64,000 nt of DNA from an uncultured Planctomycetia bacterium (GCA_964402785.1 CAYODQ010000001.1:18124-82123), one strand, 5' to 3'; shown: positions 12,031-61,897, counted from the stretch's first letter. Numbers and translations: made by a program. The notes: generated by a model from the letters alone, not told the origin.

Positions 12031-12237
12031 ATGAAAGAGAAGATACATCCCAAATACAACGAGACGACGATCACATGCAATTGTGGCAATGTGATCCACA
12101 CGCGCTCGACCAAGCCGAATATCCGCGTGGAGATCTGCGCCAACTGTCATCCGTTTTTCACGGGACAACATAAGCTTATCGACAGCGCCGGACGCGTCGA
12201 GAAGTTCCAAAAGAGATACAATAAGAAGGCAAACTAA
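12031..12237 (+). CDS. rpmE: 50S ribosomal protein L31
   Basis: [29 protein letters not shown] zinc-ribbon L31. Confidence 0.95.
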
Positions 12238-12384
12238 AAATCTGCTGAAAAAGCCTCATCTGCGTTGTTGTGCCACTCGTTCGCTTGTGCCTGCCTGCCG
12301 ACAGGCAGGCGACGCTATTCCCATAGCGCCTCCGCGCTCACTCGTGCACGCCTAGCATATGAGGCTTTTTGAGCAGATTTTTAG
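12238..12384. repeat. MITE-like palindromic intergenic repeat, copy A (terminal inverted repeats ATCTGCTGAAAAAGCCTCAT / ATGAGGCTTTTTGAGCAGAT), carrying a 22-nt near-perfect palindrome core GCCTGCCTGCCGACAGGCAGGC at 12289-12310
   Basis: Long hairpin directly after rpmE stop; the reverse complement aligns along its length with the element at 61664-61790 except for the core insertion. Confidence 0.7.
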
Positions 12385-12422
12385 TTTTCTCTATATATAA
12401 ATTTTTATAATCGATTGATCTG

Positions 12423-21705: not shown

Positions 21706-21737
21706 CTCTTTTTATATTTCTCTCTCACGCCTATCAT

Positions 21738-22024
21738 GTAGTCGGTAACAGGTTTCGCTTTTGCCCACCCTTGCCCTTTTCCTCGCATAGCTTTGTCATA
21801 AATGGCATGGACCCCTGCCTGCCGGCAGGCAGGCTCGCCAAAAGTCCGTTGGCCTCGAAGGTACACTCGTGCGGTATGCCTAAAAGAGCCATGACGCACT
21901 CGCGCTATATTAAAGGCTCGGCCAATGGGACTTTCAAGTGGCGTCTCCATTGCCATTTATGACAAAGCTATAAGCGCTCGGAAAAGGCCGGGATTGGTCA
22001 AAAACGAAACCTGTTACCGACTAG
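21738..22024. repeat. Giant imperfect palindrome G1 (about 290 bp, nested inverted repeats) containing a perfectly palindromic 20-mer CCTGCCTGCCGGCAGGCAGG at 21814-21833
   Basis: Outer arms GTAGTCGGTAACAGGTTTCGCTTTTG / CAAAAACGAAACCTGTTACCGACTA; inner arms CTTTGTCATAAATGGCATGG / CCATTGCCATTTATGACAAAG. Confidence 0.65.
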
Positions 22025-22092
22025 ATGCTAGACGGGCACTCGGCTATTAATTGATCTATCAGGGCGAGTGCCAGTTTAGAGCCTAAGCCGTT

Positions 22093-22333
22093 GCTCGATC
22101 TTTGTTTTCTTTGTTCCCGGCCCTTTTGGAGCGCTTATGGTTTTGTTGTAAGTCGTTTGGAGACGGCACGAGCCCTGAGTTTAGAGTCTAGCGAGCTGGA
22201 AATCCACCGGACGCTTCGCCCTGTTGATATAGGACTACTACCGAAGCGTCTTGGATTTTGTCCGAGGATCCAAATGACTTACAACAAAACCATGCGAGAA
22301 AAGGGGTAAGGGCAAAGAAAATAAAGATCGAGC
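22093..22333. repeat. Giant imperfect palindrome G2 (about 240 bp), related to G1 (shared CCTTTTCCGAGCGCTTAT-like arm motif)
   Basis: Arms GCTCGATCTTTGTTTTCTTTG..CCTTTTGGAGCGCTTATGGTTTTGTTGTAAGTC / GACTTACAACAAAACCATGCGAGAAAAGG..CAAAGAAAATAAAGATCGAGC. Confidence 0.6.
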
Positions 22334-22378
22334 GACGGCTTGCATCTATGACTTAGAGAGATAATTGAAAGGTTCTTC

Positions 22379-41738: not shown

Positions 41739-42710
41739 AGGCCGGTAAGCTCCGAAGTCCTCTATAATTTTTCGCATCTCGTCCGCTTTTTTGCACACAT
41801 TGATCTTGCCGCGAAATTCGTTGGCGCCGGGTACGTTCTTAAAATACCAGCAGGCGATGCGCCGCATGTGCAGTACAGCGGTATACTCGTCGCGATAGGC
41901 CAGCTCCAAATCGAAATGCCTGAGAAGTACTTTCTTTTTTTCTTCGATGGAAGGCGCTTCGTATTGCGATCCTCCCTTTAAAGCGCTGGCCACTTCTTTG
42001 AAGATCCATGGATTGCCTAATCCACCTCGGCCAACCATAACGCCGTCCACACCGGCAATTTCTTTCATGCGAAGCGCATCTTGTGCGGAGTTGATATCGC
42101 CGTTGCCAAACACGGGGATCTTCACGGCATTTTTCACTCGGCGGATAGAATCATAATTGGCTTGCCCGGAATAACCTTGCTCACGCGTGCGGCCATGCAC
42201 GGTGACGGCATCAAGACCGCAGTCTTCTGCGATCTTAGCGATCTGCGCGGCTTCTTCACCGGAGTTATCTTTGATGCCGAGGCGCATTTTCACGGTCACC
42301 GGGATCGTTTTAACCGCATTTCGAATGGCTGTAAAGATCTCTCGTGATTGTTGTGGCCGGCTCAGCATGGCAGAGCCCGCACCGAGACCAAATATTTTGG
42401 GGACGGGGCATCCAAAATTGATATCAATGAGATCATATCCCATATCCTCGATCATGCGAGCCGCTTCACCCATCGCTTCCGGGCGGCAGCCGACGATCTG
42501 CGCACCTAGCGGCTTATCCTTGACCGTGGTTTTCATGATCTCATGCGTATTGTCATTGCCGCGCACCAAAGCCTCCGCCGAGACCATCTCAAGGAAACAA
42601 AACTCCATCCCATACTCTCTCGAGAGCAGCCGATAAGCCAGATCCGTACACCCCGCCATCGGAGACTGGATAACAGCATCGTTGAGCACCAAAGACTTAA
42701 GCTTTACCAT
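41730..42710 (-). CDS. dus: tRNA-dihydrouridine synthase
   Basis: SPMAGCTDLAYR FMN-binding/catalytic Cys motif; start trimmed to ATG at 42710. Confidence 0.9.
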   Translation of the reverse strand: MVKLKSLVLNDAVIQSPMAGCTDLAYRLLSREYGMEFCFLEMVSAEALVRGNDNTHEIMKTTVKDKPLGAQIVGCRPEAMGEAARMIEDMGYDLIDINFGCPVPKIFGLGAGSAMLSRPQQSREIFTAIRNAVKTIPVTVKMRLGIKDNSGEEAAQIAKIAEDCGLDAVTVHGRTREQGYSGQANYDSIRRVKNAVKIPVFGNGDINSAQDALRMKEIAGVDGVMVGRGGLGNPWIFKEVASALKGGSQYEAPSIEEKKKVLLRHFDLELAYRDEYTAVLHMRRIACWYFKNVPGANEFRGKINVCKKADEMRKIIEDFGAYRPSA

Positions 42711-42966
42711 GGCCGTATTGTAACACGGTAATGGTTCAAATGCCGGAAACCACCCTCTCCAGGACCGTCTGATTTCTCCCACCGAGAGAAATCAGACTCG
42801 GAAATCTCCTCGCTCGTCTTTCTGTATAAATAGCTAAAAAAGAATGCAAAACCTAGAGGTGACACCTGGCCGCTCGTCGATTTAACGTCCCTCCGAGGGC
42901 GCTTTCCGGCATTTGAGCCATCCAGAAAAAATATTCCAAGTTCCTGCCAAATACTGGAGTTCCGAT

Positions 42967-42995
42967 TTGGCTAGTTTGCAGAAGAAGAGTAAAAT
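42967..42995 (+). promoter_or_regulatory. Sigma70 promoter TTGGCT-17 nt-TAAAAT, -10 ends 6 nt before ATG43002 (leaderless or near-leaderless transcript)
   Basis: Hexamers and spacing read from sequence. Confidence 0.5.
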
Positions 42996-43001
42996 AGAAC
43001 G

Positions 43002-43574
43002 ATGCTCATTAGCTATCCTGATAAGGTTATGTACTATAGCGGACACCCATTGATGCCGAGACTGGAGGAGGGGAGGTTGCGCCCTATCGGAGCCGAGCTA
43101 GTTTTTTTTAGTAAGGATATGAAGCAAAAGTTTTTTACGATACCGCTTAGCCAAATACAAAGTGTGGTTGTCGAGCAGCAGAAACTGAGCGCATCTCAAA
43201 AAAGAGGCGGTTTTTTTGGCAGCTACGCAGCACCGTCTCTTGCTTTCTTTGCGGAAGATAATATTTATGTGAGTTATTTAGATAGTTCTGATCTGCTGCA
43301 CAAAATACATTTTGCAACAAAATATGATGACGGAGCCTCGCTAAAATTAGAGATAGAGGATCGAATATCAAGATCCAGCGGTTTAAACTCATCACCTTTA
43401 GATATTGCACGAGGAAATCTTATATATGTTTTGTTGCAAAGCGCTGTAAATAGCAAGCTTCGCCCTTTGAATTCATACTATCGGTTCAATATGCCATGGG
43501 GAGCTAAAATTCTTTTAGCGCTCTCTATTGCTATTATTTTAGGCATATATTTTGTGTACGCACTTCCCAAGTAG
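43002..43574 (+). CDS. Hypothetical protein, low-GC gene, C-terminal transmembrane anchor
   Basis: 190-aa ORF; AT-rich codons (tta, ata, agt) versus ~50% GC neighbours; C-terminal AKILLALSIAIILGIYFVYAL. Confidence 0.55.
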   Translation: MLISYPDKVMYYSGHPLMPRLEEGRLRPIGAELVFFSKDMKQKFFTIPLSQIQSVVVEQQKLSASQKRGGFFGSYAAPSLAFFAEDNIYVSYLDSSDLLHKIHFATKYDDGASLKLEIEDRISRSSGLNSSPLDIARGNLIYVLLQSAVNSKLRPLNSYYRFNMPWGAKILLALSIAIILGIYFVYALPK

Positions 43575-43599
43575 GCTCGCATCGCGCCAAAACCACACA

Positions 43600-43860
43600 T
43601 GGTTATCACGTAAATCAAATCTTAGCCTCTATTTCTGTGGAAACAAGTCACGCATCTAGCCTCCATAAATAAGCACCTAAGCCGGCAAGGGGTGGCCTTC
43701 GTACGACCTCCGCGACCCCCGAGCCGCACGGAACATAGCTCTATTTTAAACATGGGCGAGGGGGCAAGAAGAGCGAGGTGCCTCGCAGGGGCACCGGAGC
43801 GTGTCGGTAGAAGGCTGCCCCTTGCCGGCTTTTACGTAAAATCATTTAGGCTAGATTCTT
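43600..43860. repeat. Structured inverted-repeat element upstream of bipA (arms CCTAAGCCGGCAAGGGGTGGCC / GGCTGCCCCTTGCCGGCTTT; flanking ACGTAAA(A)TCA..TTAGCC direct-repeat-like ends)
   Basis: Read from sequence; overlaps the spurious N-terminal extension of the bipA ORF. Confidence 0.45.
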
Positions 43861-43889
43861 GGGGAGTATATGGTATACTTCTCGGCTCT

Positions 43890-45704
43890 ATGAAAAACAT
43901 ACGTAATGTCGCTATTATCGCTCACGTTGACCATGGCAAGACGACCCTTGTGGACGCCTTGCTCAAGCAGTCCAACGTCCATCGCAATATCAATGAGATG
44001 GGCGAGTGCATCATGGACTCCATGGATCTTGAAAAGGAACGTGGTATCACGATCCGCGCCAAGAACGCCAGCGTGGAGTACAAAGGCCACAAGATAAACA
44101 TTATTGATACCCCGGGCCACGCAGACTTTGGTGGCGAGGTGGAGCGCACGCTTCGTATGGCGGATGCTGCTCTTCTGGTGGTGGATGCCAAAGACGGTCC
44201 TATGCCTCAAACCCGCTTTGTGCTTCGCAAGGCTCTCGAGCAAGGACTCAAGATCATCGTTGTGGTCAATAAGGTCGATCGCAATGACTCTCAGATCGAT
44301 GATGTCATGAATCGCACATTTGACCTTTTTTGTGAATTAAACGCCACCAGCGATCAGCTGGATTTTCCGACGGTGTTTGCGTCTGCGCTCAAAGGCACGG
44401 CGACCTTGGATATGAAACACCCCAATGACAATATTTTCCCGCTTTTAGACCTTATCATTGAAAAAGTGCCCGAGCCGCAGGGTGACGAAAAGGCACCGCT
44501 TCAGATACTGGTGCTTTCGCTGTCTCAAGACTCTTATAAAGGAAAGATGGGTATCGGAAAGCTTTCCAATGGCACGATCGAAAAGAATCAAAATGTGGCA
44601 TTGATCCGCCGAGACGGCACACAAGTGAATTCAAAAGTGATCGGTCTTTTGACCTATCGCGGTCTTGAAAGGGTCGAAGTTGAGAAGGCGGTCGCAGGCG
44701 ATATTGTGTCCGTGGCCGGTTTTCAGGAGATCGGTATTGGTGAGACCATCACGGATGCCTCCAATCCCATGCCGCTTCCGACGCTTAAAATTGACGAGCC
44801 CACCGTTCAGATGACATTTGGTGTCAATACCAGTCCTTTTGCCGGGCGTGAGGGTAAATTCGTGACGTCACGCATGATCCGCGACCGTCTATTTAAAGAG
44901 TTGGAGACCAATGTTTCTCTTCGCGTGGACGAGACCGACAGTCCCGATACTTTTTTGGTATCAGGCCGCGGCGAGTTGCACCTTTCTATTTTAATTGAAA
45001 CAATGCGCCGCGAGGGTTTTGAGTTGCAGGTGTCGCAGCCTGTTGTTATATTTCACGAAGAAAACGGCGTAAAAATGGAACCATTCGAGCTTTTGATCAT
45101 AGACGTGCCGGCCGAATATCAAGGCACGGTGCTCGAAGAGATAGGCCGCCGGCGCGGTGTCATGAAGAATATGTCCCAAACGCCGACAGGTGAATTGCAT
45201 TTGGAATATCAAATCGCCACGCGGGGCGTGATCGGTCTCAAAGGTTTGTTCATGACCAAAACGCGCGGCACGGCGATTGTCCATCATGTATTTGATGAAT
45301 ATAAACCGGCTATCGATGCGTCCTGGAATACTTTTCCTCATGGCTCGCTCGTGGCTTGTGAAACGGGCACGGCGACATCGTATTCGCTTTGCAGCTGCCA
45401 AGAGCGCGGTGATCTATTTATCAAGCCGGGCATCGAAGTGTACGACGGCATGATCATTGGCGAGAATTCTCGTGGCGAAGATCTTGAGATTAGTCCTTGC
45501 AAAACCAAAAAAATGTCCAATATGCGTTCGGTGAGCGCGGATGATGCGTTGGTTTTGACGCCTCCACGCGAGCTGACGCTTGAGCTCTCCATTGAATTCA
45601 TCGGCCCTGATGAGCTCGTCGAAGTGACTCCCAAAAATATCCGGTTGAGAAAAAGGCTTCTCGACCCACTCCAAAGAAAACGCGTCAAACGCCAAACCGC
45701 CTAA
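43890..45704 (+). CDS. typA: Translational GTPase BipA/TypA; start trimmed to ATG43890
   Basis: NVAIIAHVDHGKTTLVDALL G1, DTPGHADFGGEVER G3; EF-G-like domains. Confidence 0.95.
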   Translation: MKNIRNVAIIAHVDHGKTTLVDALLKQSNVHRNINEMGECIMDSMDLEKERGITIRAKNASVEYKGHKINIIDTPGHADFGGEVERTLRMADAALLVVDAKDGPMPQTRFVLRKALEQGLKIIVVVNKVDRNDSQIDDVMNRTFDLFCELNATSDQLDFPTVFASALKGTATLDMKHPNDNIFPLLDLIIEKVPEPQGDEKAPLQILVLSLSQDSYKGKMGIGKLSNGTIEKNQNVALIRRDGTQVNSKVIGLLTYRGLERVEVEKAVAGDIVSVAGFQEIGIGETITDASNPMPLPTLKIDEPTVQMTFGVNTSPFAGREGKFVTSRMIRDRLFKELETNVSLRVDETDSPDTFLVSGRGELHLSILIETMRREGFELQVSQPVVIFHEENGVKMEPFELLIIDVPAEYQGTVLEEIGRRRGVMKNMSQTPTGELHLEYQIATRGVIGLKGLFMTKTRGTAIVHHVFDEYKPAIDASWNTFPHGSLVACETGTATSYSLCSCQERGDLFIKPGIEVYDGMIIGENSRGEDLEISPCKTKKMSNMRSVSADDALVLTPPRELTLELSIEFIGPDELVEVTPKNIRLRKRLLDPLQRKRVKRQTA

Positions 45705-51875: not shown

Positions 51876-52635
51876 GACGCCTCACTAGGTCCCCGGAGCG
51901 GACGATCTTGATGAAGACTTGATCCAATGATGAGCTGTTGAAGTGGGCGAGTATTTCTTTGGGGGAGCCTTGCGCGATCATCTTACCGTCATTGATAAAA
52001 TAGATGCGATCACAAATTTCTTCCACCTCAGGCATATTGTGAGAGGTGTAAAGTATGCCGATATTCCTTTCCCGCCGGATCTTTTTTAGTACTTGTCGAA
52101 CCGTATCAGCCATCTCGGGATCCAGACTTGCCGTGGGTTCATCCAAAAGCAAGAGTTCGGGATCATTGAGTAGGCATTTCACCAGATTGAGCCGTGTTTT
52201 TTCTCCGGCAGATAAGGCGCCGCATTTACGGTTGTAAAGTTTCGCGATATCGAATAAAGATAAAAGCTCTCTGATCTTATCGGAAACTTTTTTAACGCCA
52301 TAAAGCTTTGAAAAAATAAAAAGATTTTCTGATACGGTCAAATTTGACGGAAGCTGAACATACGCTGAACAAAAATTGATCCGCTGAGAAATGGCGTGGC
52401 GATGGTGAAGAGGATCCAGTCCCAACACGCGGGCTTTGCCGCTGGTGGGGGAAAGAAGGCCCAGAAAAATATGGATAGCCGTTGTTTTTCCAGCGCCATT
52501 AGGACCCAAGAGGCCCACGATTTCTCCTGCGCGCGCTTGAAGCGACAGATCATTCAGAGCTGTCGTATCATCATAGACTTTACAAAGCGCTTGCGCATCC
52601 AAAAGTGTATTGATCATGAAGTTATTATACGACAC
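51865..52635 (-). CDS. ABC transporter ATP-binding protein (ABC-2 exporter partner)
   Basis: GPNGAGKTT, LSAGEKTRLNL, LLLDEPTASLD. Confidence 0.92.
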   Translation of the reverse strand: MSYNNFMINTLLDAQALCKVYDDTTALNDLSLQARAGEIVGLLGPNGAGKTTAIHIFLGLLSPTSGKARVLGLDPLHHRHAISQRINFCSAYVQLPSNLTVSENLFIFSKLYGVKKVSDKIRELLSLFDIAKLYNRKCGALSAGEKTRLNLVKCLLNDPELLLLDEPTASLDPEMADTVRQVLKKIRRERNIGILYTSHNMPEVEEICDRIYFINDGKMIAQGSPKEILAHFNSSSLDQVFIKIVRSGDLVRRRAE

Positions 52636-61658: not shown

Positions 61659-61663
61659 CAGAT

Positions 61664-61790
61664 AATAATCAGCTTAAAAGCCTCAGATGCGAGGCGCGAG
61701 AGAGCGAGCGAGGAGGCGCTATGGTAATAGCGTCGCACAAGCGAACGAGCTGTGTAACGACGCAGATGAGGCTTTTTGAGCTGATTATTA
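61664..61790. repeat. MITE-like palindromic intergenic repeat, copy B (same family as 12238-12384, opposite orientation, lacks the palindromic core insert)
   Basis: TIRs ATCAGCTTAAAAGCCTCAG / AGATGAGGCTTTTTGAGCTGAT; internal GAGGAGGCGCTATGGTAATAGCGTCGCACAAGCGAACGAG matches reverse complement of copy A. Confidence 0.7.
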
Positions 61791-61897
61791 AGATTTGTTA
61801 AAAATTAGTGTAAATCTGTTAAAAGATATGGTAGAATTCTGAAGATATAGGAAGCCAGCTTGGTCACGGCAAACTTTTAGGAGAAAAGAGGAACCAT

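What the first reader, a model, noticed from the sequence alone, without database searches (positions are those of the whole stretch)
42967..43574. Low-GC orphan gene with a consensus promoter abutting its start codon
The 190-aa ORF is visibly AT-richer than its neighbours and uses rare codons for this genome. It has a near-consensus TTGGCT-17-TAAAAT promoter whose -10 ends 6 nt before the ATG (leaderless-type transcript). It encodes a soluble domain plus one C-terminal TM helix, and it is bracketed by structured DNA (hairpin at 42756, inverted-repeat element at 43600-43860). This is the profile of a horizontally acquired single-gene cargo, such as a phage-derived membrane effector, an abortive-infection-type protein or a bacterial PH/GRAM-like domain protein.
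Basis: partly seen in the sequence, partly recalled or inferred. Interest (0 to 1): 0.6.

Follow-up and report, generated by a model that had tools for sequence, protein, structure and literature searches.

The report
Lineage-specific orphan membrane gene, hairpin-flanked
A real gene, found in very few genomes, encodes a small membrane-anchored protein in a variable spot of an uncultivated Omnitrophota genome, flanked by two inverted copies of an undescribed hairpin-forming element; nothing links it to phages and its function is unknown.

Summary
ORF 43002-43574 has the lowest GC (0.405), GC3 (0.384, z=-4.1) and codon-adaptation index of 55 ORFs in the window. TTGGCT-17-TAAAAT ends 6 nt before the ATG.

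The gene is real: dN/dS is about 0.10 against an orthologue. It is extremely narrow: four proteins among about 15 billion. It lies in 1.18 kb between dusB and typA, which are direct neighbours in about ten related Omnitrophota species, so it is a lineage-specific insertion at a variable spot.

It is not recent. Three lineages with saturated dS carry it, all still AT-rich.

The start-abutting promoter is not special. dusB and typA have the same leaderless-type layout across the phylum.

A medium-confidence AlphaFold model gives a cytoplasmic PH-like sandwich, a helix and a C-terminal membrane anchor. All fold and sequence matches are below threshold.

No phage, PADLOC or Pfam match was found. 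In relatives, a separate and recently moved PDC-S05 (ORF6N) defence-candidate gene sits next to it. That gene is absent here.

The two flanking structures are inverted copies of one dispersed, strongly covarying element family (about 150 nt). It is absent from Rfam and occurs at unrelated loci in other genomes. This is the most novel result.

The parts
42967..42995 (+). Sigma-70-type promoter of the ORF: -35 TTGGCT (42967-42972), 17-nt spacer, -10 TAAAAT (42990-42995). The -10 ends 6 nt before the ATG, so the transcript is predicted to be leaderless.
   Evidence: Both hexamers, the spacing and the gap are conserved in L001 and L002 while the spacer diverges. The distant homologue P0004 has TTGACC-17-TAAAAT-7-ATG. 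The transcription start site is inferred, not measured.
43002..43574 (+). Orphan gene, 190 aa. It is under purifying selection, AT-rich, and has no Shine-Dalgarno sequence.
43071..43376 (+). Residues 24-125: predicted cytoplasmic PH-like domain (4+3 beta strands capped by helix 111-125). Invariant residues are G24, R25, L26 ... F44, I47, P48 ... S63, Q66, R68.
43497..43562 (+). Residues 166-187: a single C-terminal transmembrane helix (tail anchor), with only Pro-Lys after it.
   Evidence: Hydropathy peak; AF2 helix with pLDDT 75-81. The segment stays hydrophobic but varies in sequence among orthologues.
42731..42921 (+). Structured element copy A, read on the + strand. It has a 27-bp closing stem, an inner hairpin at 42767-42797 with loop CCACCGA, and a 3' motif CCTGGCCGCTCG..AACGTCC. 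Its 5' end lies about 20 nt from the dusB start codon.
   Evidence: Covariance-model hit at 42737-42915, 82.7 bits. Orthologous copies in L002 (full) and L001 (core deleted) have compensatory stem changes.
43655..43856 (-). Structured element copy B, read on the - strand, so it is inverted relative to A. Core plus closing stem span 43679-43831; the outer stem is 43655-43663/43848-43856. On the + strand the hairpin is followed by CTTTT and could end the ORF transcript (inferred).
   Evidence: Covariance-model hit of 130.3 bits. BLAST finds a 38-nt, 89% match to the L009 copy. An orthologous copy in L001 has compensatory changes.
43615..43640 (.). Apparent empty site of the ORF6N/PDC-S05 cassette that lies between the ORF and element B in L001 and L002 (aaatcttagcctctatttctg).
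   Evidence: Junction comparison. There is no ORF6N remnant in the window. This is an inference from three sequences.
42708..42725 (-). Start of dusB (ATG at 42710-42708 on the - strand) with an extended -10, TGTTACAAT, ending 6 nt upstream. This is the native leaderless-type layout for comparison.
   Evidence: The same layout is seen in L006, L010, L012, L013 and L017.
43871..43892 (+). typA/bipA start (ATG 43890) with an extended -10, TGGTATACT, ending 10 nt upstream.

Best explanation
The ORF is a genuine, lineage-specific accessory gene of one Omnitrophota clade.

It lies in an expanded, variable intergenic spot between the divergent core genes dusB and typA. Its own sigma-70-type promoter starts transcription at or next to the start codon. 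This leaderless layout is the normal design for operon-first genes in this phylum.

The product is a tail-anchored inner-membrane protein. About 125 N-terminal residues form a PH-like beta-sandwich in the cytoplasm, followed by a helical linker and one C-terminal transmembrane helix. The most likely mode of action (inferred) is a membrane-tethered binding module that recognises a protein, peptide or lipid ligand at the inner face of the membrane.

The gene was gained before the three sampled lineages split and has been inherited vertically under purifying selection since then. Its low GC appears to be a lasting property of the family rather than a fresh-transfer signature.

The two flanking structures are inverted copies of a dispersed, covarying hairpin element family that also occurs alone at other loci. 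They are most simply explained as independent residents of the same insertion-prone gap. Copy B probably also acts as the ORF's transcript-ending hairpin.
For: Real gene:
- dN/dS is about 0.10.
- dN of 0.150 matches neighbouring rluB (0.148) and grx (0.160) for the same pair of genomes.

Narrow distribution:
- 3 hits in 5.8 billion clusters.
- A profile search of 1.84 billion representatives adds only P0004.
- A profile re-search gives 4 in total.

Insertion at a variable spot:
- dusB and typA are 32-270 nt apart in L006, L007, L010-L013, L015, L017, L018 and L021, against about 1.18 kb here.
- Other cargo occupies the same spot: a transposase in L014, cspA in L016 and L019, and an AmmeMemoRadiSam-like gene in L008.

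Native-type promoter: conserved footprint, and the same design at dusB, typA and several other genes.

PH-like domain plus tail anchor.

The family is AT-rich in another host too: the P0004 gene has GC 0.386 in a locus of GC 0.429.

Element family:
- The covariance model finds both window copies and three independent hits in other Omnitrophota loci.
- 89.5% of cells are paired, against 65.7% in shuffles and 37-48% in slid controls.
- 35 of 37 pairs show changes on both sides.
- Single copies lie next to nuoA, bcp, rpsP and miaA in metagenomes.
Against: The fold assignment rests on an AF2 model with mean pLDDT 58.7 built from only 4 sequences. No structural or sequence match passes a significance threshold.

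Residues 77-118 resemble a BNR/SBBP propeller blade (hhalign 80.6%), which competes with the PH reading.

No functional evidence exists. The transcription start, membrane topology and ligand are all inferred.

Persistent low GC3 after saturated dS is unexplained. GC3 is below even the non-coding GC.

A and B have their 5' ends facing outwards at the two extremes of the inserted DNA. That symmetry could be more than coincidence.
Confidence: 0.6

Rival explanations
1. The ORF is an anti-phage or abortive-infection effector. The PH-like domain senses an infection cue and the tail-anchored helix then oligomerises and damages the membrane. On this reading the dusB-typA gap is a small defence hotspot.
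For: Single-TM small proteins with a sensor domain are a common effector layout (general knowledge). In L001 and L002 the next gene is an ORF6N protein that matches PADLOC PDC-S05 at E=1.6e-56. A PDC-S05 representative reduced plating of T7, T5 and T4 in E. coli (bioRxiv 10.1101/2024.09.26.614923). The gene is an accessory, AT-rich orphan at a variable site.
Against: The ORF itself has no PADLOC, PHROGs or Pfam hit. The PDC-S05 gene is a separate, recently moved cassette: its dS is 0.12 between L001 and L002 while the ORF's dS is saturated. It is absent from the window, so the two genes are not a co-evolving pair. Other cargo at this spot is not defence-related. P0004 sits among small membrane proteins next to an M48 peptidase, not among defence genes.
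Confidence: 0.15
2. The ORF is the cargo of a hairpin-bounded cassette. The two inverted element copies are the functional ends of a unit that was moved or recombined as a whole, in the manner of folded-DNA recombination sites or REPIN-like elements.
For: A (+) and B (-) belong to one family and lie at the two extremes of the inserted DNA with their 5' ends facing outwards. The A ... ORF ... B arrangement is kept in L001. Stems are almost purely Watson-Crick: 6 G-T and 10 A-C cells against 419 Watson-Crick cells. There is no strand bias, which is compatible with a DNA-level hairpin.
Against: Every other copy found is single and at an unrelated locus. The distant homologue P0004 has no such elements nearby. 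No recombinase or transposase lies within the window region and there is no tRNA. Closing stems differ between copies instead of being conserved terminal repeats. No target-site duplication is visible. L001 has lost the core of copy A but keeps the ORF.
Confidence: 0.1
3. The soluble part is not PH-like. It derives from a fragment of a BNR/SBBP beta-propeller protein (about one to one and a half blades), so the orphan arose by exaptation of a repeat-protein fragment.
For: The profile search hit 16 multi-blade propeller proteins. BLASTP gives 36% identity over 75 residues, spanning residues 78-150 and including a second partial unit. hhalign against a blade alignment gives probability 80.6% and E=1.3e-5 over residues 77-118. 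The targets are BNR_2/SBBP proteins.
Against: Scores are inflated by summing 5-11 near-identical repeats, and the best single segment would not be significant database-wide. P0004 alone shows no similarity. The DDGAS turn is not conserved in L002 or P0004. The target was chosen after the fact. AF2 places these strands as the second sheet of a PH-like sandwich.
Confidence: 0.1
4. The ORF is a chance open frame in AT-rich intergenic DNA and not a gene.
For: There is no Shine-Dalgarno sequence, the composition is atypical, and no family match exists.
Against: pN is 0.136 against pS 0.644, indels are in-frame, the frame is open in three loci at 63-75% amino-acid identity, and a 35%-identical homologue exists elsewhere. 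By my estimate from base composition, a 190-codon open frame in 40% GC DNA has a chance of about 4e-6.
Confidence: 0.02

Closest known systems
Bacterial PH-domain membrane proteins (Pfam bPH_2 PF03703, e.g. YdbS/YdbT; YokE-like bPH_3 PF14470)
   Same: A small PH-like beta-sandwich with a capping helix is tethered to the cytoplasmic membrane. The sequence pattern G-x-L...L-x-F...F-x-I-P...I-x-x-V is typical of these and of GRAM domains (my knowledge of the families). Function is largely unknown in those families too.
   Different: No HMM match to any bPH or GRAM family at E<=10. The anchor is a single C-terminal tail helix, not N-terminal helices. In P0004 it is a single N-terminal helix.
Eukaryotic GRAM/PH-like domains (FAN N-terminal PH PF25400; Vps36 GLUE; PTB; Ran-binding domains)
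   Different: All matches are below significance with identity of 3-17%. There is no evidence of phosphoinositide-binding residues. The context is bacterial.
C-tail-anchored bacterial inner-membrane proteins (e.g. E. coli ElaB/YqjD/YgaM)
   Same: A cytoplasmic N-terminal domain with one transmembrane helix at the extreme C-terminus and only a few residues beyond it (my knowledge).
   Different: No sequence relation was found. Their soluble part is helical (DUF883), not a beta-sandwich.
PADLOC PDC-S05 (ORF6N / RhuM-like single-gene defence candidate)
   Same: It occupies the same intergenic gap directly downstream of the ORF's orthologues in L001 and L002.
   Different: It is a different protein, absent from the window, with its own Shine-Dalgarno sequence. 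It moved recently (dS 0.12).
Palindromic intergenic repeat elements (REPIN/REP, ERIC, Correia/NEMIS-type MITEs) and folded recombination sites (integron attC)
   Same: The flanking elements are 150-200 nt imperfect hairpins dispersed in intergenic DNA in either orientation. Their stems are maintained by compensatory change.
   Different: In this family the internal core is conserved and the closing stem varies, which is the reverse of MITEs and REPINs. No terminal repeats, target duplications, RAYT gene, transposase or integrase were seen. The attC R''/R' core sites are not evident by inspection. There is no Rfam match.

Membership tests
Pfam bacterial PH families (bPH_2 and others) and GRAM | Sequence match to the family HMM at or above the gathering score | tested here: not met
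   The window protein has 0 Pfam families at E<=10. Among the 4 family members, the only PH-type hit is PF25400 PH_FAN for P0004, at 16.4 bits against a cut-off of 27.
PH-like superfold | Seven-stranded (4+3) antiparallel beta-sandwich closed at one end by a C-terminal alpha-helix | tested here: inconclusive
BNR/Asp-box or SBBP beta-propeller | Four or more tandem blades, each with an S-x-D-x-G-x-T-W type turn | tested here: not met
   There is at most about 1.4 blade-like units (residues 77-150). hhalign probability is 80.6% over 42 columns. The turn motif is not conserved in L002 or P0004.
Leaderless gene | The -10 hexamer ends about 5-8 nt before the start codon, with no Shine-Dalgarno sequence and transcription starting at the start codon | tested here: met
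   The geometry is met and conserved in three loci and in P0004, and there is no SD motif. The transcription start itself cannot be tested with these tools.
Horizontally acquired island or cargo | Atypical composition and absence from the syntenic site in relatives | tested here: met
   GC3 z=-4.1, CAI lowest of 55. Absent between dusB and typA in about 15 related species.
Horizontally acquired island or cargo | Mobility signatures (integrase or transposase, tRNA target, direct repeats) or an identifiable donor | tested here: not met
   No tRNA in the window. No mobility gene in the gap. No relatives in IMG/VR, PHROGs or BFVD. The gene predates a split with saturated dS.
Known anti-phage defence systems (PADLOC) | Match to a defence-protein HMM | tested here: not met
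   The ORF has 0 PADLOC families at E<=1. Only the neighbour in L001/L002 matches PDC-S05.
Rfam RNA families (for the flanking elements) | Covariance-model match | tested here: not met
   No hit at gathering score in the window. At E<=10, 42600-44000 gives only a coding-region artefact (AsrC within typA). A typical metagenomic copy (L089) gives only nhaA-II at 17.9 bits against 70.4, and a lncRNA artefact.
MITE / REPIN-type mobile palindromes (for the flanking elements) | Conserved terminal inverted repeats shared by copies, target-site duplication, and a cognate transposase in the genome | tested here: not met
   Closing stems differ between copies while the core is conserved. No duplication is visible at the ends. 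The transposase cannot be assessed from 64 kb.

The most novel reading that the evidence does not exclude
The hairpin element with a conserved CCNCCGA(G) loop may be a new class of functional nucleic-acid element in Omnitrophota. It could be a folded-DNA recombination or mobility site, or a structured RNA. In this reading, an inverted pair of such elements delimits a gene cassette, and the orphan tail-anchored PH-like protein is its cargo and acts as a membrane defence effector at a dusB-typA hotspot.
Probability: 0.07. Interest if true: 0.8.

Novelty: new variant of a known kind. Interest (0 to 1): 0.42.

Why it matters
For the gene: it is a clean example of a long-lived, purifying-selected orphan in an uncultivated, possibly host-dependent phylum. 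It has a recognisable fold class (a PH-like domain on a tail anchor) and a well-defined presence/absence polymorphism. That makes it a tractable candidate for heterologous tests.

For gene prediction: leaderless, -10-abutting starts seem to be the rule for operon-first genes in Omnitrophota. Gene callers that rely on ribosome-binding sites will misplace starts. One did so for P0003, which was called 18 residues short.

For RNA and mobile-element biology: the flanking element is a strongly covarying structure of about 150 nt that is not in Rfam. It is present at unrelated loci in several genomes and metagenomes. Its nature (RNA or DNA, mobile or not) can be tested directly.

Tried and rejected
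1. Pfam, NCBIfam, PHROGs and PADLOC scans of the ORF gave nothing.
2. The first AF2 run, with 3 sequences, had pLDDT 41 and was unusable.
3. The AFDB50 fold library was not available.
4. A genome-contig scan with the ORF profile found no relatives. The source genome or its orthologues are not among the GTDB representatives.
5. An IMG/VR scan for the ORF and for two element motifs found nothing.
6. The Rfam 'AsrC' hit at 43881-43967 is the conserved GTPase N-terminus of typA read antisense. It was rejected.
7. I considered element B as a typA 5' leader or riboswitch. I rejected this because the typA -10 lies downstream of the element, 10 nt from the ATG, and most relatives have only 32-100 nt between dusB and typA.
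8. I considered 6S, SRP and RNase P RNAs, tmRNA, retron ncRNA and attC for the elements. There is no Rfam support, no adjacent reverse transcriptase or integrase, and the family is multi-copy.
9. The G-U versus A-C asymmetry test for the transcribed strand gave 6 against 10 cells and is uninformative.
10. PilZ-like reading of the ORF (three PilZ genes lie downstream): the RxxxR / DxSxxG motifs are absent and there is no Pfam hit.
11. Internal Met40 as the start: it is not conserved (Leu in L001 and L002).
12. Paralogues in the window: none.
13. The literature searches returned no description of this element and nothing on leaderless gene starts in Omnitrophota; the bacterial PH-domain/tail-anchor search returned only unrelated papers.
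14. Correction: I first took the dusB start one codon too far upstream. The ATG is at 42710-42708. The intergenic lengths printed are therefore about 3 nt short, and the conclusions are unaffected.

Full report
1. WHAT IS IN THE SEQUENCE

The finding's coordinates are accurate:
- -35 TTGGCT at 42967-42972
- a 17-nt spacer
- -10 TAAAAT at 42990-42995
- six bases, then ATG at 43002
- stop codon ending at 43574 (190 aa)

An in-frame TAA overlaps the -10 box, so 43002 is the first possible start.

The window has GC 0.479. Among 55 ORFs of at least 150 aa, this ORF is the lowest on three measures:
- GC 0.405 (z=-3.5)
- GC3 0.384 (z=-4.1)
- a leave-one-out codon-adaptation index of 0.676, against 0.753+-0.024 for the others

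Its GC3 is even below the mean GC of the non-coding gaps, 0.457.

A simple promoter scan finds this site. It also finds as many sites in shuffled sequence (3 against 3.2), so the hexamers alone prove nothing.

2. IS IT A GENE?

Yes. A search of 5.8 billion protein clusters returns three proteins: the ORF itself, one at 74% identity and one at 62%.

The contigs that carry them (L001 and L002, both from assembly GCA_021733565.1) are syntenic with the window. The order is dusB (minus strand), the ORF, then typA, rluB, grx and PilZ genes.

- Window against L001: pN 0.136, pS 0.644, dN/dS about 0.10.
- The ORF's dN (0.150) equals that of rluB (0.148) and grx (0.160) in the same genome pair.
- The gene has therefore been inherited with its neighbours at an ordinary rate since those lineages split.
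- Synonymous sites are saturated, so this is not a recent arrival.

The first 17 codons differ mainly by synonymous changes. The L002 orthologue starts with GTG at the equivalent position. This fixes the start at 43002 and shows that the database protein P0003 was called 18 residues short.

3. THE PROMOTER

All three orthologous loci share TTGGCT, exactly 17 nt, TA[A/G]AAT, 6 nt, then ATG or GTG. The spacer matches at only 6-9 of 17 positions. That is a phylogenetic footprint of a functional promoter whose predicted start site is the start codon.

This layout is not peculiar to the ORF:
- dusB has TGTTACAAT-6 nt-ATG.
- typA has TGGTATACT-10 nt-ATG.
- Both layouts recur in other Omnitrophota species.
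- Several other operon-first genes in the window have a -10-like box 6-9 nt before the start and no Shine-Dalgarno sequence.
- The distant homologue P0004 has TTGACC-17-TAAAAT-7-ATG.

The start-abutting promoter is therefore native style, not a sign of foreignness.

4. WHERE IT SITS

The best matches to TypA (82% identity and below) are Candidatus Omnitrophota MAGs.

In ten of those species dusB and typA are direct divergent neighbours, 32-270 nt apart. The window has about 1.18 kb there.

In other species the same gap holds other things:
- an rve-type transposase (L014)
- cspA (L016, L019)
- an AmmeMemoRadiSam-like gene (L008)
- 560 nt of non-coding DNA (L009)

The gap is thus an insertion-prone, variable spot, and the ORF is a gain in one clade.

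In L001 and L002 an ORF6N-domain gene lies between the ORF and typA. It matches PADLOC PDC-S05 at E=1.6e-56. A preprint reports strong protection of E. coli by a PDC-S05 representative (10.1101/2024.09.26.614923).

That gene is a separate, recently moved cassette:
- Its dS between L001 and L002 is 0.12, while the flanking ORF is saturated.
- It carries its own GGAGG ribosome-binding site.
- It is absent from the window, which looks like the empty site.

5. THE PROTEIN

There are no Pfam, NCBIfam, PHROGs or PADLOC matches.

An exhaustive profile search of 1.84 billion representatives adds one true relative, P0004. It has 170 aa, is 35% identical over about 115 residues, and comes from a different genome and context. 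In P0004 the same domain follows an N-terminal membrane helix.

With four sequences, AlphaFold gives a medium-confidence model: mean pLDDT 58.7, and 60-74 in the domain. The model has four strands, a conserved loop (LSxSQKRG), three strands and a capping helix (residues 24-125). A low-confidence helix follows at 132-152, then a confident C-terminal helix at 166-187. That last helix coincides with the only hydrophobic segment.

Fold and sequence comparisons:
- Foldseek's best PDB hits are also Ran-binding and PTB domains, at E of 0.04 or worse.
- The viral structure library gives nothing.
- The weak sequence hits point the same way: PH_FAN for P0004 (16.4 bits, cut-off 27) and the Vps36 GLUE domain (E=1.5).

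I read this as a probable PH-like domain, at roughly two chances in three.

The charge distribution fits a cytoplasmic domain held at the membrane by a tail anchor: four basic residues before the helix and only Pro-Lys after it.

A competing signal exists. Residues 77-150 resemble 1-1.5 blades of BNR/SBBP propeller proteins. Those scores are inflated by repeat summation, the target was picked after the fact, and P0004 does not share the similarity. I leave this as inconclusive.

6. THE FLANKING STRUCTURES

Copy A (42731-42921, read on the + strand) and copy B (43679-43831, read on the - strand) share one architecture:
- a long closing stem of 20-40 bp whose sequence differs between copies
- a short stem
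- a hairpin with a conserved CC[ACU][CG]CGA loop, followed by UCGCUC
- a second stem
- a 3' motif of the form CCAUGGCNCUCGCGG...CAACGGUCC

A copy in L009, next to dusB and without any ORF, links the two by sequence.

A motif scan of metagenomes found further clear copies at five distinct loci (seven contigs), next to nuoA, bcp, rpsP and miaA and at one locus on a short contig, in either orientation.

A covariance model built from 11 copies scores the window copies at 130 and 83 bits. It also finds independent copies in L010 (54 bits), L013 (44 bits) and L015 (partial).

On the 13-sequence alignment:
- 89.5% of cells are paired, against 65.7% in shuffles and 37-48% in slid controls.
- 35 of 37 pairs show changes on both sides.

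Orthologous copies (window against L001 and L002) also differ by compensatory changes.

The family is not in Rfam, and neither of two core motifs was found in IMG/VR. Pairs are almost purely Watson-Crick, with no G-U over A-C excess on either strand. I therefore cannot say whether it acts as RNA or as folded DNA.

Long hairpins of this general kind are frequent in the window's intergenic gaps. Examples are 12231-12387, 21728-22034, 22085-22341 and 61660-61795, with z from -7.5 to -9.8 for the three gaps tested.

Since every other family member found is solitary, the simplest reading is that A and B are separate residents of an insertion-prone gap. On the + strand, B is a very stable hairpin followed by CUUUU, so it probably ends the ORF transcript (inferred). 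The outward-facing symmetry of A and B keeps a cassette reading alive at low probability.

7. MECHANISM, COMMITTED

Most likely (0.6 for the descriptive core): a leaderless mRNA from a native-type promoter encodes a tail-anchored inner-membrane protein. Its cytoplasmic PH-like domain binds a partner at the membrane.

Status of the steps:
- Shown: the gene is real, constrained, narrowly distributed, compositionally odd, syntenically inserted, and has a conserved promoter.
- Inferred: the transcription start, the topology, the fold and the binding role.

Rivals:
- defence or abortive-infection effector (0.15)
- hairpin-bounded cassette cargo (0.10)
- propeller-fragment origin (0.10)
- not a gene (0.02)

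8. COMPARISON AND NOVELTY

By fold and membrane tethering, the protein works most like bacterial PH-domain membrane proteins and GRAM-type domains. It fails every sequence membership test, and its anchor is at the opposite end.

It is an orphan family of four sequences: a new variant of a known kind, and of modest interest on its own.

The persistent low GC3 (0.38-0.45 in three lineages despite saturated dS) is unexplained. P0004 is likewise AT-rich in its own host.

The element family is the more novel observation and deserves its own follow-up.

Overall interest: 0.42.

Noticed in passing
window 42731-42921 (+) and 43679-43831 (-); also L009 4482-4632, L010 8393-8531, L013 7806-7957, L087, L089, L090, L091, L094, L095: A dispersed, strongly covarying structured element family of about 150 nt. 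It has a variable long closing stem and a conserved core with a CCNCCGA hairpin loop. It is absent from Rfam and IMG/VR and occurs at unrelated loci (next to nuoA, bcp, rpsP, miaA). Whether it acts as RNA or DNA is unresolved.
   Followed up: yes
window 12231-12387, 21728-22034, 22085-22341, 61660-61795: Four further very stable long hairpins (140-310 nt) in intergenic gaps; folding z was -7.5 to -9.8 for the three tested (22085-22341 was not folded). The 12.2-kb and 61.7-kb copies share a core (GACGCTATTNCCATAGCGCCTCC) in opposite orientation, and closing stems of the form AAAAGCCTCA...TGAGGCTTTTT. The 21.8-kb one scores weakly (13 bits) with the element model. Long-hairpin elements seem to be a general trait of this genome.
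   Followed up: partly
L001 973-1482 and L002 1696-2205 (absent from the window; putative empty site 43615-43640): An ORF6N-domain gene that matches PADLOC PDC-S05 lies directly downstream of the ORF's orthologues. It is 96% identical between two loci whose flanks are saturated (dS 0.12). It therefore looks like a discrete, recently moved cassette of about 600 nt.
   Followed up: partly
L008, L009, L014, L016, L019 (dusB-typA gap): The same intergenic gap holds different cargo in other Omnitrophota species: an AmmeMemoRadiSam-like gene, an rve transposase, cspA, or non-coding DNA with one element copy. It is an insertion hotspot between two conserved divergent promoters.
   Followed up: partly
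window 42708-42725 (-), 43871-43892 (+), also near 52617 (-), 49345, 26002, 62144; L006-L017: Operon-first genes commonly have an (extended) -10 box 6-10 nt before the start codon and no Shine-Dalgarno sequence. Internal operon genes do have GGAG-type sites. Leaderless initiation appears widespread in this phylum and led to at least one mis-called start (P0003).
   Followed up: partly
window 43230-43451 (ORF residues 77-150): This stretch resembles 1-1.5 blades of BNR/SBBP beta-propeller repeat proteins (36% identity over 75 aa; hhalign probability 80.6%). It includes an internal repeat, DNIYVSYLDS / GNLIYVLLQS. It may be a chance beta-meander resemblance or a trace of the orphan's origin.
   Followed up: partly
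window 42933-42944: The block ATTCCAAGTTCC, about 25 nt upstream of the -35, is conserved in L001 (ATTCCAGGTTCC) while its surroundings diverge. It may be a regulator site or UP-like element for the ORF promoter.
   Followed up: no
L004 7583-9734: The distant homologue P0004 sits in a run of small predicted membrane proteins with no Pfam match, upstream of an M48 peptidase gene. It is also more AT-rich than its locus (0.386 against 0.429).
   Followed up: partly
window 43881-43967 (-): A sub-threshold Rfam hit to AsrC (22.8 bits against a gathering score of 111) falls inside the typA coding region. It reflects the conserved GTPase N-terminus and is an artefact.
   Followed up: yes
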